Assembly (NCBI GenBank): GCA_963700285.1
Contig: CAVOXA010000001.1
Coordinates: 1,784,101-1,848,100 of the forward strand
DNA from: an uncultured Chloroflexia bacterium
GTDB taxonomy: Bacteria > Chloroflexota > Anaerolineae > JAAYZQ01
Reading direction: 5' to 3'
DNA: 64,000 nt
The translations under genes and the position numbers were made by a program. How positions within the stretch are numbered: position 1 is the stretch's first letter; each line of letters opens with the position of its first letter. The notes below the pieces were generated by a model that was given only the letters and a program-made list of their open reading frames with translations, made no database searches and was not told where the DNA came from. Positions 16,861 through 21,025 of the stretch are shown here, piece after piece.

Positions 16861-17674
16861 CGTCTGACTGGTATGGCAGCTCGCACACTGCGATTAGTGG
16901 CGTCCCCTGATCAGTTATGGACATGGGGACGATCCGCGGAGTATATACGTCTGGCATGCAGTACAATCTTACGCTGCCATAAAAGGCCCTCAACACCCAG
17001 AAGAACTCTCCTGCTGTCCATTCGCGCACATGCAGTCTGTAGATCGGAGGACTGGCGTGGGAGGATAGCTCATCACGGTTCTTATTGGGTGTGGTGAGGA
17101 TGGCTTTGGGCGCCAGATTGACACAAGTCTTCAAGAATGCACGATAGTCGGCAACATGCTCTATCACGTCCACAGCCACTACTGCGTCAAACGGGCCATC
17201 CTCAGGTACCGGGTAACGGTCAATGTAGTGGATGCCGGGCCGAGTTCGATGCTCCCGTGCCCAGTTGAGTGCCTCATTGTCAAGTTCTGAGCAGACTACG
17301 AAACGCTCTGGGTCAACGGTAGCCTCGAAGGCAAAACAGCCCGTTCCGCCGCCCAACTCAACGATGCGCTTTGCGGAGTCCAACAGGGTGACCACAGCCA
17401 TGTTGAGGGCAACGATGTTTGGCCATTCTAGGGGGCCGCCCGCTGCTACCCTAGCCTGTTTCTCAGCCCAATTCACTGAGCCTGCCTCAGGATTCTCCTT
17501 GTACGCTACACCCAAGGCTTCAGTGGTACGTATATGTGTCGAGATCTGGCTTTCTGCCACACGGCGAAGCTCAAAGCCGAACCTGGCCAGTAGCGTGTTA
17601 GCGAGTCCCTTCAAGGAGCGAAGCAGAAAGGACTGGTAGCGCCGTGCGCCATGATCAGGTATCATTGACATCAA
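16814..17674 (-). CDS. Class I SAM-dependent methyltransferase
   Basis: IVELGGGTG; FDAVVAVDVIEHV; LTTPN; HVREWT. Confidence 0.85.
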   Translation of the reverse strand: MMSMIPDHGARRYQSFLLRSLKGLANTLLARFGFELRRVAESQISTHIRTTEALGVAYKENPEAGSVNWAEKQARVAAGGPLEWPNIVALNMAVVTLLDSAKRIVELGGGTGCFAFEATVDPERFVVCSELDNEALNWAREHRTRPGIHYIDRYPVPEDGPFDAVVAVDVIEHVADYRAFLKTCVNLAPKAILTTPNKNRDELSSHASPPIYRLHVREWTAGEFFWVLRAFYGSVRLYCMPDVYTPRIVPMSITDQGTPLIAVCELPYQSDDAQRREDERRLPSAA

Positions 17675-18932
17675 TCACAGTCCATTGTGCAGGTACCCGT
17701 ACCAATCCCTGGCTTCTTACGATGCCCGCCGTAGTACTGTCTACAGTAAACCTTAGACAGTTACCCGCGCGGTCATGCAGTGTGTTGAGCGAATCGCCTA
17801 GCCATATGGTGACATAGTACGCGCCATCATTCAGAATACTCAGGGCAGGCTGCACCTGTATCCGTGTCTCTCTGCTGGGAAGAACCACAGCAGCCTTGTC
17901 GTCCGTGTTATTGAGATGCAGCACGACATTGCCAAGAGAATCGCGGATTGACACGCCCATGATGCAGGCTGTGCCTGCTTCTTGCAAGACCTCCATGTCG
18001 AAGGTAATCTGCTCCCCGTGGCTGAACTCCGATTTGGGTTGCCCGCTGCTATTGCGAGCCGCCAGGTAGGTCACCCGCATCGGACCAGATCCTAGCCTAT
18101 CTACAGCCCAATCACGCAGATCAACTTCACCCTTCGATGAGCCGTAGTCGAGGTAGGCTCGCACTACCTCGCTGCTATACCCATCTGCGGACAGTTTTCC
18201 CTCAGTCAGGCATAGGGTGCGCCGGCACAGATCGATGATGGCGCCCATGTTATGGCTCACAAACAGCACCGTCCGGCCTTCCCGGCCACCTCTCCCATCT
18301 TGCCCAGGCACTTCTTCTGAAACGCCGCATCCCCCACCGCCAGCACCTCGTCCACCAGCAGGATCTCCGGCTCCAGGTGGGCGGCCACGGCAAAGGCCAG
18401 GCGCACGTTCATCCCGCGAGGAGTAGCGCTTGACCGGCGTGTCGATGAACTTCTCCACCCCGGAAAAGTCCACGATCTCGTCGAACTTGCGGTCGATCTC
18501 GGCCCTGCTCATGCCCAGGATGGCGCCGTTCAGGTAGATGTTCTCCCGCCCCGTCAGCTCCGGGTGAAAGCCGGTACCCACCTCCAGCAGCGAGCCCACC
18601 CGGCCGTGGATCTCGGCCCGGCCCTCGGTCGGCTCGGTGATGCGCGACAGGATCTTGAGCAGCGTGATCTTGCCCGCGCCGTTGCGGCCGATGATGCCCA
18701 CCACCTCGCCGCGCTTGACCTCGAAGGAGACGTCCTTCAGGGCCCAGAACTGGTCGTCGTTCGCCGCCGGGTGCTGCCAGCGGACGGCGGACGGCGGACG
18801 ACAGACGACAGCCGTTGCGCGAGCCGTGCAGGCGGCAGCAAAGGCATCGCGCAGCGTGTCATGTTGCTGCTGCGCCTTGCCGATGCGGTAGCGCTTGCCC
18901 AGGTTTTCTACGCGAATTGCTATGTCATTCAT
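17655..18932 (-). CDS. wzt: Polysaccharide ABC exporter ATPase with Wzt C-terminal domain, frameshifted
   Basis: [45 protein letters not shown]. Confidence 0.92.
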
Positions 18933-18943
18933 GAACAAGTTTT

Positions 18944-19017
18944 GCCACGAATTTCACGAATTGAACGAATTTTGGTACCGTGTTTTGATAATTCGTGCAA
19001 TTCGTGTAATTCGTGGC
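18944..19017. repeat. Inverted repeat built from three tandem 9-mers (CACGAATTN) per arm
   Basis: Arms GCCACGAATTTCACGAATTGAACGAATT (18944-18971) and AATTCGTGCAATTCGTGTAATTCGTGGC (18990-19017) are complementary at 26 of 28 positions. Confidence 0.95.
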
Positions 19018-19024
19018 TGGCCTC

Positions 19025-19397
19025 CTATCGTACGATGCGTCTCTGTTGGAGCGATGGTGCGCCAAAGTTGAGCAGGATCGCCAGGCGCAGGCCTGTCGCT
19101 GCCAGGTAGTGGTGGGCCTGCGCCTCGTGGACTCGGGTCAGGGCCGAGACGGCCTTGAGCTCCAGGATGATCTTGTCGTCGACGACGAAGTCAGCGACAT
19201 AATCGCCCACCAGACGGCCCTTGTAGTGTACCGGCAGTCGCTTCTGTCGCTCAAACGGAATGCCGCGCGCCTCGAACTCGATAGGCCAGCGCGCCTTCAT
19301 ACACAGCTTCCAGAAAGCCGGGACCCAGGGTACGGTGTACCTCCATCGCCGCGCCGACGATCTCGTATGAAAGCTCTTTGAACAGGATTTCAGCCAT
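19025..19397 (-). CDS. GxxExxY protein (PD-(D/E)XK nuclease-like), frameshifted
   Basis: MAEILFKELSYEIVGAAMEVHRTLGPGFLEAVYE...YVADFVVDDKIILELKA...LLNFG. Confidence 0.93.
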
Positions 19398-19407
19398 AAT
19401 ACTTCCT

Positions 19408-19479
19408 GCCACGAATTGCACGAATTATACGAATTCTAATCCAAGTATGCATAATTCGTGTAATTCGTGAATTCGTGGC
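19408..19479. repeat. Second CACGAATTN x3 inverted-repeat hairpin
   Basis: Arms GCCACGAATTGCACGAATTATACGAATT (19408-19435) and AATTCGTGTAATTCGTGAATTCGTGGC (19453-19479). Confidence 0.95.
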
Positions 19480-20346
19480 TAAATAACGTCGGCAAAGGTG
19501 CGCTCGGTGCGCCGGAAAAAGACGAGCCCGCTGACCAGGACCAGCAGCGTGATGAGCGATCGAGACGGCGAAGAGCGGGCCAGGCGGCTGCGGCGTCGGC
19601 CAGGTAGTTGCCCAGCAGCGCCCAGCGAAAGCCCTCCACCACGCCGGTCATGGGGTTCAGCGCCAGCAGCCAGCGGATACTGCTCCGGGATCAGCGTCGT
19701 GCCATAGATGACGGGCGTCAGGTACATCCAGATCTGGACCAAAAAGGGCACCAGGTAGTTGACGTCGCGGTAGCGCACGTTGAGCGCCGACAGCCACAGG
19801 CCAAAGCCCAGCGCGGTGAGCATGGCCAGCAGCAGAAAGGCGGGCAGCAGCAGCACGGCCGGCGTGGGCGCGATGCCGGTAGAAGACCATCAAGGCCGAC
19901 CAGCACCAGGAAGGCGATGCCAAAATCGACCAGCCCGGAGAGCACGCCGCTGATGGGGATGACGAGCCGCGGAAAGTAGACCTTGGTGATCAGGTGGGCG
20001 CTGCCCACCAGGCTGGTCGAGGAGCGGGTCAGCGAGCCGGCGAAGTAGTTCCAGGGCAGCAGGGCCGCGTAGGCGAAAGATCGGATAGGGCACGTCGCCC
20101 GACGGCACGTCGAGCAGGCCGCCAAAGAGCAGGCTAAAGACGACCATGCTCACCACCGGCTGGAGCACGATCCAGGCGACGCCCAGCAGCGTCTGCTTGT
20201 AGCGCACCTTGAGGTCGCGCCAGACCAGGAAGTAGAGCAGCTCGCGGTATTCCCACACGCCCGCAGCTGCAGGGAAGCCCAGCCCCGGGTGGGCTCGATG
20301 ATGACGGTGGGTACTCGGTTGGCTGTTCTTGGCAAGTACTGGTCAT
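19479..20346 (-). CDS. wzm: Polysaccharide ABC exporter permease, frameshifted
   Basis: WEYRELLYFLVWRDLKVRYKQT; ITKVYFPR; NVRYRDV; ERTFADVI. Confidence 0.92.
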
Positions 20347-20544: not shown

Positions 20545-20554
20545 GGTTTGCCTC

Positions 20555-20583
20555 TTGACTCTGCCATGGAATTGGTCTATAAT
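20555..20583 (+). promoter_or_regulatory. sigma70-type promoter for the DUF433 gene
   Basis: TTGACT-17 bp-TATAAT. Confidence 0.75.
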
Positions 20584-20622
20584 CCATCTACCTGTTCTAC
20601 GGAAGTCCTGGAAGGAGTTGGC

Positions 20623-20868
20623 ATGCTTGAAGAACGGTTCTGGCAGCGCATCAGCATCGATCCCCAAGCCATGACCGGCAAGCCGGTGATCAGGGGAACT
20701 CGCATTCCGGTGGAACTGATCGTCCGGATGTTGGCTCAGGGTATCCCGGACCAGGAGATTCTGGAGGAGTATCCCCGGCTGGAACCTGACGACATCCGGG
20801 CTGCTTTGGCCTACGCAGCCCATACCTTGGCCGATGAGGACGTGTTCCCCCTGGCTGTTCCCACCTAG
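20623..20868 (+). CDS. DUF433 family antitoxin-like protein
   Basis: RISIDPQAMTGKPVIRGTRIPV...EILEEYPRLEPDDIRAALAYA; GAAGGAG RBS. Confidence 0.92.
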   Translation: MLEERFWQRISIDPQAMTGKPVIRGTRIPVELIVRMLAQGIPDQEILEEYPRLEPDDIRAALAYAAHTLADEDVFPLAVPT

Positions 20869-20987
20869 TGCCAGGGTTTCCGTCTTCGTGGGTTCGTGAT
20901 CGACCTGCATCATGCGCTTGCCCTTCCCACCGAAGTTGATCCTGTGTTTCCCCACGAGACCACTATGCTTGCGTATCAGCCCGCAGT

Positions 20988-21015
20988 TATTCGTGCTATT
21001 CGTGCAATTCGTGGC
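20988..21015. repeat. Third copy (single arm) of the 9-mer array
   Basis: TATTCGTGCTATTCGTGCAATTCGTGGC. Confidence 0.85.
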
Positions 21016-21025
21016 AGAAGCGAAC

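What the first reader, a model, noticed from the sequence alone, without database searches (positions are those of the whole stretch)
18944..19479. GxxExxY nuclease gene as a precise cassette flanked on both sides by 9-mer-array hairpins, splitting wzm from wzt
Seen: two ~73-bp hairpins, each with arms GCCACGAATTNNACGAATTNNACGAATT and different AT-rich loops, exactly bracket a 373-bp GxxExxY gene. One overlaps the wzm stop and the other begins 7 bp after the GxxExxY stop. Known: wzm and wzt are normally adjacent, and GxxExxY is a PD-(D/E)XK-fold family of unknown function. Inference: a minimal 'gene plus downstream hairpin' mobile cassette, reminiscent of REP/RAYT or attC logic, in which the nuclease may recognise and spread its own repeats. 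I am not aware of a described mechanism.
Basis: partly seen in the sequence, partly recalled or inferred. Interest (0 to 1): 0.8.

Follow-up and report, generated by a model that had tools for sequence, protein, structure and literature searches.

The report
Hairpin-bracketed nuclease cassette favouring exporter junctions
A small gene for a predicted nuclease of unknown function (GxxExxY) sits between two hairpins of 9-base repeats at the junction of two sugar-export genes that are adjacent in close relatives; related nuclease genes occur with matching repeats and often at this same junction, so it is likely a selfish nuclease-plus-repeat cassette spread by host recombination.

Summary
Observation confirmed: hairpins 18944-19017 and 19408-19479 (fold z -8 to -10) bracket a GxxExxY gene (19025-19397, minus). 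The same-genus genome has wzm and wzt 13 bp apart; 0 of 51 relatives' junctions hold the gene. Arrays flank stand-alone GxxExxY genes generally (31 of 57 on both sides, against 2 of 400 random windows), and the repeat word follows the protein clade, not the host, also in a fresh sample. New here: 16 of 28 closest homologs lie just upstream of a wzt start (0 of 76 distant ones), filled junctions are scattered over the wzm tree, and the arms mark tandem wzt-start fragments carrying toxin-antitoxin genes (6 of 12 against 1 of 52). Against a strict model: most arms have no gene, 9 of 12 arm-rich genomes lack a close partner gene, no target duplication or recent donor was found, and non-nuclease four-helix-bundle cassettes use the same junction. 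Best reading: an Ssn/REP-like hairpin-nicking nuclease whose cassette moves by host recombination; activity untested. This scan already noted the system on other DNA many times; I found no paper on it.

The parts
19479..20345 (-). wzm, ABC-2 polysaccharide exporter permease (frameshifted in the assembly; 5' end approximate); its TAG shares one base with the upstream hairpin
19408..19479 (.). upstream hairpin: left arm 19408-19435, 17-nt loop, right arm 19453-19479; three 9-mer units per arm
19402..19407 (-). purine-rich ribosome-binding-like site between hairpin and ATG; no promoter-like site found inside the cassette
   Evidence: sequence
19025..19397 (-). GxxExxY (TIGR04256/PF13366) gene, one extra base near 19283; all family-conserved residues (E30, D69, E79, K81, Q93, Y97, N110, R120 in relative numbering) present across its two pieces
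18944..19017 (.). downstream hairpin: arms 18944-18971 and 18990-19017, 18-nt loop
17655..18932 (-). wzt, ABC ATPase with Wzt_C domain (frameshifted in the assembly); ATG 11 bp from the downstream hairpin
20987..21016 (+). lone gene-less arm of the same family between a DUF433 gene and a convergent gene end

Best explanation
This is one copy of a widespread cassette in which a small GxxExxY gene is bracketed by inverted arrays of a 9-base repeat; the protein is predicted to be a RecB/Cas4-like nuclease that likely recognises its own arms when they fold as a hairpin in single-stranded or cruciform DNA and nicks there, and host recombination would then copy gene and arms into a resident hairpin or into the conserved wzm/wzt gene ends. 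Shown: the anatomy, empty alleles in relatives, the family-wide gene-repeat association, co-variation of repeat word with protein clade, the bias of this clade for the wzt start, scattered occupancy on the wzm tree, and the excess of arms at tandem wzt-start/toxin-antitoxin arrays. Inferred: nuclease activity, hairpin specificity, and that the cut drives the spread. The cassette has no promoter-like site and rides the operon transcript; gene-less hairpins and lone arms are its leftovers or non-autonomous copies.
For: Empty allele in same-genus G001 (13-bp spacer) and same-family G021 (2 bp); 39 of 51 relatives' junctions are 30 bp or less and none holds GxxExxY; the window's wzm is sister to G001's inside a starred 17-row set with no other GxxExxY-filled allele, so gain in this lineage is the simplest reading. 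Arrays on both sides of 31 of 57 stand-alone genes from relatives and 44 of 56 mostly metagenomic homologs, 0 of 8 domains of tandem two-domain GxxExxY proteins, 2 of 400 random windows. Repeat similarity rises from 0.07 to 0.49 with protein identity (Mantel rho 0.18, 0 of 2000 permutations); nearest protein in another genome 0.41 against same-genome genes 0.08, higher in 21 of 31; repeated on 35 new genes, 0.41 against 0.12, higher in 26 of 35. CACGAATT-type arms at 26 of 27 homologs of 65% identity or more, 4 of 45 under 45%. Two-sided changes in the stem 12 against shuffle mean 2.8, maximum 9 (71 hairpins). 16 of 28 close homologs just upstream of a wzt start, 0 of 76 distant ones; 7 filled wzm alleles rejected as one clade, AU p 7e-61. 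Arms at 6 of 12 loci with tandem wzt-start fragments, 1 of 52 single-copy loci. Model pLDDT 95, PD-(D/E)XK fold, top match Cas4 SSO0001 Z 8.2, rmsd 4.1 over 100 residues; E..D..ExK..QxxxY conserved at 90% or more, the RecB motif set described for Cas4 (PMC8610317, passages). About 80% protein identity with near-saturated fourfold sites shows purifying selection.
Against: No activity was measured. Only 4 of 123 repeat-first loci have the gene beside the arm. 9 of 12 arm-rich relatives lack a gene of 60% identity or more; G001 has 8 arms and no PF13366 match; G314 has 74 arms and two GxxExxY genes with other arms. Co-variation can come from co-inheritance alone, and CACGAATT-like arms recur in several protein clades. 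No recent donor: fourfold sites of the gene agree with other filled loci at 20-55%, no better than wzm or wzt. No target duplication. Four-helix-bundle genes, with no known nuclease activity (own knowledge), sit between heptamer arrays at the same junction in 3 of 51 relatives, so the design and the site do not need a nuclease. The fold match is middling and nearly tied among many PD-(D/E)XK proteins. This copy is frameshifted as assembled.
Confidence: 0.5

Rival explanations
1. Passenger at a hot spot: the arrays are spread and homogenised by host processes (slippage, gene conversion, repair at hairpins); GxxExxY and four-helix-bundle genes are cargo that stays linked to whatever arms it arrived with and does not act on them.
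For: Arms outlast or precede the gene in many genomes; the junction takes unrelated cargo, HicAB, PIN, HEPN, MazF, aspartyl protease and four-helix-bundle genes; 6 of 12 tandem wzt-fragment loci have no CACGAATT arm.
Against: Ordinary cargo at these loci has no arms of its own word, while each GxxExxY clade keeps its word across hosts and several words coexist in one genome; the active-site set is kept; two-domain GxxExxY proteins lack arms.
Confidence: 0.2
2. RNA-level insert like a 23S rRNA intervening sequence: the arms pair in the operon mRNA, loop out the guest gene or are processed there, so that flanking genes stay expressed; the protein acts on or with that RNA.
For: Arms abut stop and start codons, most lone arms in this genome precede an RBS and ATG, in-frame arms are tolerated in the wzt linker, and the sister four-helix-bundle family is the IVS protein family.
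Against: Here each hairpin closes on itself and the gene lies between two hairpins; the fold and motifs are those of DNases; an RNA role does not explain new DNA copies. No Rfam match.
Confidence: 0.12
3. True autonomous cassette: gene plus one hairpin is excised as a circle and integrates at another hairpin, the protein doing both cutting and joining.
For: The two hairpins of a locus resemble each other more than those of other loci in 15 of 16 cases, the window ranking 1 of 16; tandem units with a repeated wzt start look like single-crossover integration of circles.
Against: PD-(D/E)XK enzymes hydrolyse and are not known to rejoin DNA (own knowledge); many homologs lie within a single arm pair; the two loops differ; similarity within a locus may be genome-wide homogenisation, which was not controlled.
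Confidence: 0.1
4. Domesticated filter like Neisseria Ssn: the nuclease cuts incoming single-stranded DNA that carries the arms and so limits exchange at surface-polysaccharide and prophage genes; mobility is incidental.
For: Same layout as NTS-ssnA-NTS (PMC11893778, sections 7, 8, 12); arms cluster at a surface-glycan locus and prophage late genes; purifying selection.
Against: Very patchy presence among relatives (5 of 151 genomes with a close gene) and up to about nine paralogs per genome, each with its own arms, fit a selfish element better than a host function.
Confidence: 0.08

Closest known systems
Ssn/NTS: GIY-YIG site-specific ssDNA nucleases flanked by their own hairpin repeats (PMC11893778; abstract and sections 7, 8, 12 read)
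   Same: Tiny single-domain nuclease gene with cognate hairpin repeats on one or both sides (42% both sides there, 54% here), many gene-less copies, repeat and enzyme diversified in pairs.
   Different: PD-(D/E)XK RecB/Cas4-like fold, not GIY-YIG; arms are tandem arrays of 8-10-mers, the gene often inside the stem; activity untested; clade-level bias for one gene junction.
REP/REPIN with RAYT transposase (PMC3116915; passages read)
   Same: Repeat doublets forming hairpins, singlets as remnants, each enzyme paralog next to its own repeat type, closest enzymes in different genomes.
   Different: No HUH/Y1 transposase; units are arrays of 9-mers with outer GCCAC ends; gene-repeat coupling per genome is looser (3 of 12 arm-rich relatives have a close gene).
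Paired tandem-repeat 'global regulator binding sites' of Geobacter metallireducens (PMC2700814; passages and supplement legends read, supplements themselves not opened)
   Same: Three or four tandem 7-9-mer repeats, paired on opposite strands at variable distance, in dozens of intergenic copies.
   Different: Read there as IHF/HU sites with no link to a nuclease; other words; identity with these arms not tested.
ORF-bearing 23S rRNA intervening sequences and TIGR02436/PF05635 four-helix-bundle cassettes (PMC4990558 seen only in a search listing)
   Same: Small guest gene between complementary arms; such cassettes occupy the same wzm-wzt junction in 3 of 51 relatives.
   Different: Unrelated protein, heptamer arms, not in rRNA here; no processing shown.
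Integron cassettes (attC) and homing endonucleases (own knowledge)
   Same: Promoterless gene with flanking hairpin; patchy occupancy of a preferred site with empty alleles.
   Different: No integrase sought or seen nearby, no attC R/L boxes, no intron or intein; several other sites are also used by the same clade.

Membership tests
GxxExxY / PDDEXK_3 (TIGR04256, PF13366) | HMM score above curated cut-off | tested here: met
   98 bits against cut-off 35; 92.7 and 38.9 bits for the two pieces against 22
PD-(D/E)XK nuclease, RecB/Cas4 type | Fold plus motifs E, D, ExK, QxxxY | tested here: met
   Model of intact relative L187, pLDDT 95; matches all PD-(D/E)XK; residues conserved and present in the window's pieces
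PD-(D/E)XK nuclease, RecB/Cas4 type | Metal-dependent DNA cleavage | not testable with these tools
   needs purified protein
Cas4 proper | Four-cysteine Fe-S staple and about 200 residues | tested here: not met
   123 residues, no conserved cysteine
Ssn/NTS | GIY-YIG (cd10448) domain | tested here: not met
   only PF13366/TIGR04256 match; PD-(D/E)XK fold
Ssn/NTS | Gene flanked by cognate hairpin repeats that also occur gene-less | tested here: met
Ssn/NTS | Site-specific cleavage of ssDNA only | not testable with these tools
   bench assay
REPIN/RAYT | HUH/Y1 tyrosine transposase | tested here: not met
REPIN/RAYT | Repeats organised mainly as inverted doublets | tested here: met
   93 of 140 left-arm matches have a right terminus within 130 nt; in this genome 14 of 18 arms are single
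REPIN/RAYT | Repeat abundance tied to a resident enzyme gene | tested here: inconclusive
   3 of 5 genomes with a close gene are arm-rich against 9 of 146 without, but most arm-rich genomes lack it; many are fragmented
Insertion sequence / MITE | Target-site duplication at the ends | tested here: not met
   comparison with G001 and G021 empty sites shows replacement of the spacer; relatives are about 9% or more diverged, so an old duplication could be lost
Integron cassette | attC site with R/L boxes and an IntI integrase | tested here: inconclusive
   arms are plain 9-mer arrays; no integrase among the 15 neighbouring ORF pieces scanned; the genome was not searched for IntI
Intrinsic terminator | Stem followed by a U run | tested here: not met
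   not called by the scan; family flanks are T-rich before (60%) and A-rich after (55%) the stem on either strand
23S-IVS-type RNA insert | Excision from the transcript | not testable with these tools
   no RNA run holds the stretch

The most novel reading that the evidence does not exclude
GxxExxY proteins are a large family of 120-residue, sequence-programmed hairpin nucleases, each clade reading its own tandem-repeat word, and their cuts drive an integrase-free cassette system: at the wzt start, hairpin-primed recombination stacks toxin-antitoxin and other small genes in tandem, each unit bounded by a copy of the wzt 5' end, an integron-like array built from a housekeeping gene fragment and a nuclease-cut hairpin.
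Probability: 0.25. Interest if true: 0.85.

Novelty: new variant of a known kind. Interest (0 to 1): 0.62.

Why it matters
GxxExxY is a common family listed as 'unknown' in the PD-(D/E)XK survey (PMC3424549, passage). The flanking arms give it an obvious candidate substrate, clade by clade, so one binding and cleavage assay with swapped words would settle its function and might yield a set of very small structure- and sequence-specific nucleases, as happened for Ssn. It would also explain a class of unexplained paired tandem repeats in many phyla, and this locus adds a natural filled/empty pair within one genus and a link to tandem toxin-antitoxin arrays in surface-polysaccharide operons.

Tried and rejected
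Sequencing runs: no run holds more than 0.10 of the words and no RNA holder was listed; laying four runs at 80% likeness gave only relatives' fragments, no piece across the cassette, so neither the frameshift nor excision could be checked. Homodimer prediction: no verdict. Protein search found no near-identical intact copy, best 85%. Horizontal transfer from known filled loci: first suggested by DNA identity, rejected as evidence after fourfold sites proved saturated. Excess mismatches to G001 next to the junction (9 of 33 against 7%) would fit co-conversion, but the window was chosen after looking and other 30-nt bins are as high; not used. Co-orientation test was uninformative in GC-rich DNA. 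A class-wide search with wzm returned nothing even in genomes known to have it; wzt was used instead. PDB sequence search gave only T7 endonuclease I at E 1.4. Viral contigs gave two distant hits. Rfam: two chance-level hits. One search dropped genes whose alignment ran over the stop; redone. Literature searches without a description of the system: (open-access library only).

Full report
Observation. The region is a minus-strand polysaccharide operon with glycosyltransferases, wzm, wzt and a methyltransferase. Between the wzm stop (19479-19481) and the wzt ATG (18932) lie 546 bp: a 72-bp hairpin (19408-19479), a GxxExxY gene (19025-19397) and a 74-bp hairpin (18944-19017). Each arm is three 9-mers with core CACGAATT. 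Folding z-scores are -8.2 to -10.2 with 0 of 200 shuffles as stable. The gene carries one extra base near position 115. wzm and wzt are frameshifted as well and the locus has many single-base gaps against the same-genus genome, so an assembly error is likely; no read set could test it. The tools did not name the host.

Repeats in this genome. Loose scans found 18 arms: the four of this cassette and 14 lone arms, seven of them at gene junctions of a prophage region (portal and head protease), two in a related region, one at window 20987-21016. Most lone arms end just before an RBS and start codon. A second, decayed GxxExxY on contig C9 is flanked by a different word (CGCAAAG), which also occurs gene-less elsewhere; a tandem two-domain GxxExxY on C5 is a different kind.

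Empty sites. The same-genus genome G001 has wzm and wzt 13 bp apart, G021 2 bp apart. Of 51 distinct wzm-wzt junctions from relatives, 39 are 30 bp or less, 7 are 31-140 bp, 5 are longer, and none holds GxxExxY (loci chosen by similarity to wzt, of whose hits I fetched the 30 returned plus 40 further regions). Three of the long ones hold a four-helix-bundle gene (TIGR02436/PF05635) between heptamer arrays, and two short ones hold heptamer arrays alone. No target duplication is visible; the spacer is replaced.

Gene to repeat. Arrays lie on both sides of 31 of 57 stand-alone genes from relatives (59 genes, two dropped for short flanks) and 44 of 56 mostly metagenomic homologs (71, 15 dropped), against 0 of 8 domains of tandem two-domain proteins and 2 of 400 random genome windows. 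Two layouts occur: gene inside one arm pair, or gene between two hairpins as here. The word follows the protein: among 47 genes with arrays, repeat similarity climbs from 0.07 below 35% identity to 0.49 above 65% (Mantel rho 0.18, 0 of 2000), same-genome pairs score 0.08, and the nearest protein in another genome scores 0.41, higher in 21 of 31. A fresh set from ten other genomes and one virus repeated this (35 of 39 genes with arrays; 0.41 against 0.12; higher in 26 of 35). Kin are not independent and co-inheritance alone could give part of this. Two-sided stem changes were 12 against a shuffle mean of 2.8, maximum 9, in 71 hairpins; flanks are T-rich before and A-rich after the stem, the reverse of a terminator.

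Repeat to gene. Among 151 relatives, 12 have ten or more arms and only 3 of these have a gene of 60% identity or more; 5 genomes have such a gene (Fisher p 0.004, overstated by kinship). G001 has 8 arms and no family match. Of five arm-rich genomes reached through the repeat scan, three have a GxxExxY with CACGAATT-type arms, one a near variant, one none. Arms break short-read assemblies (an arm ends at a scaffold gap in G018), which may hide some genes, but the coupling is clearly looser than 'no gene, no repeat'.

Site preference, the new part. Among unique homologs with enough flank, 16 of 28 at 65% identity or more lie within 450 nt upstream of a wzt start, 1 of 7 at 55-65%, 0 of 76 below; L187 has the same junction as the window, arm fused to the wzm TAG. 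On a tree of 58 wzm ends the 7 GxxExxY-filled alleles fall in four places, one clade is rejected (AU p 7e-61; quick tree, one long branch, groups set by junction content, a smaller tree seen before; two of the seven have other DNA between wzm and the cassette), and the window is sister to empty G001. So the junction was filled more than once or emptied dozens of times. There is no recent donor: fourfold sites of the gene match other filled loci at 20-55%, no better than wzm or wzt, while the protein keeps 70-83% identity. Many of these loci contain repeated wzt 5' fragments alternating with HicAB, PIN, HEPN, TumE, MazF or aspartyl-protease genes; in the class survey 12 of 64 loci have such repeats and CACGAATT arms mark 6 of them against 1 of 52 single-copy loci (p 8e-5). 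In G117 four units repeat, each with the hairpin inside the wzt linker. The same clade also uses other junctions, for example behind a NurA-containing gene pair.

Protein. An intact relative folds with pLDDT 95. Fold searches give PD-(D/E)XK proteins only, led by Cas4 SSO0001 (Z 8.2, rmsd 4.1, 100 residues), with many near ties including Hjc resolvases, so no specific relative. E30, D69, E79, K81, Q93 and Y97 are conserved at 90% or more, N110 and R120 are invariant. This is the RecB motif set I, II, III and QxxxY described for Cas4 (PMC8610317, passages), without the Fe-S cysteines.

Mechanism. Most likely (0.5) the protein nicks its own arms when folded, and host recombination or repair copies the unit, either into a resident hairpin (giving hairpin-gene-hairpin; the two hairpins of a locus are more alike than across loci in 15 of 16, with imperfect extraction and no same-genome control) or through the conserved wzm and wzt ends. 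Hydrolytic PD-(D/E)XK chemistry has no known rejoining step (own knowledge), which is why I put the joining on the host. Rivals: passenger at a hot spot (0.2), RNA-level IVS-like insert (0.12), autonomous attC-like cassette (0.1), domesticated filter of incoming DNA (0.08).

Known systems and novelty. It works like Ssn/NTS (PMC11893778, abstract and sections 7, 8, 12) and REPIN/RAYT (PMC3116915, passages) but is a member of neither. Similar paired tandem repeats were catalogued in Geobacter without a nuclease link (PMC2700814, passages; its supplementary alignments were not opened and may bear on this). The family is 'unknown' in PMC3424549 (passage); the term GxxExxY occurs in three library papers, two listed, and the one I opened mentions it in passing. 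Searches found no description; subscription journals are not covered. This scan's own notes report the GxxExxY cassette and the four-helix-bundle cassette many times on other DNA; two look-ups for the wzt bias or wzt-fragment arrays returned nothing. Verdict: real, a new variant of a known kind, interest 0.62.

Noticed in passing
L361 (G117), L320 (G141), L355 (G230), L170, L171, L191, L204: Tandem arrays in which copies of the wzt 5' end alternate with small toxin-antitoxin or protease genes; 12 of 64 surveyed wzt loci, half of them with CACGAATT arms. Looks like an integrase-free cassette array.
   Followed up: partly
L348:1060-1500, L365:1500-2030, L351:845-1500; L337:1438-1500, L344: Four-helix-bundle genes between heptamer arrays at the same wzm-wzt junction; L365 (filled) and L337 (arrays only) are sister alleles on the wzm tree.
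   Followed up: partly
L158 (G011), L191, L179, L361: CACGAATT hairpin inside the variable linker of wzt, in frame at least in G011.
   Followed up: partly
G000:C22:138000-151000 (L312) and G001:C17 (L313): Prophage late region with seven lone right arms at gene junctions, most just before RBS and ATG; the related prophage in G001 has arms at partly the same, partly other junctions. Other hairpin families are nested there.
   Followed up: partly
G000:C9:1600-2400: Second, decayed GxxExxY with CGCAAAG-type arms and three tandem upstream units; gene-less copies of that word on C10, C14, C19.
   Followed up: partly
window 18785-18822: Short heptamer array (GACGGCG/GACGACA) read in frame in the wzt linker, also present in G001; a different repeat family.
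   Followed up: no
window 20548-21016: DUF433 gene with its own strong promoter-like site (20555-20583) on the opposite strand upstream of wzm, followed by a lone arm; G001 has a different gene upstream of wzm.
   Followed up: partly
window 17428-18250: The Wzt C-terminal part is lower in GC (0.55) and much less like G001 (about 60-84%) than the ATPase part (about 92%): a swapped sugar-binding domain.
   Followed up: no
G000:C5:275043-275792 and L030, L290-L292: Tandem two-domain GxxExxY proteins (270-330 aa) are widespread in the class and lack flanking arrays; a possibly domesticated branch.
   Followed up: no
L175, L177, L208, L172: A second short repeat (CTCAGGACAGG type) is inserted inside GxxExxY and wzt coding sequences in these contigs, so several repeat families pile up at the same loci.
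   Followed up: no
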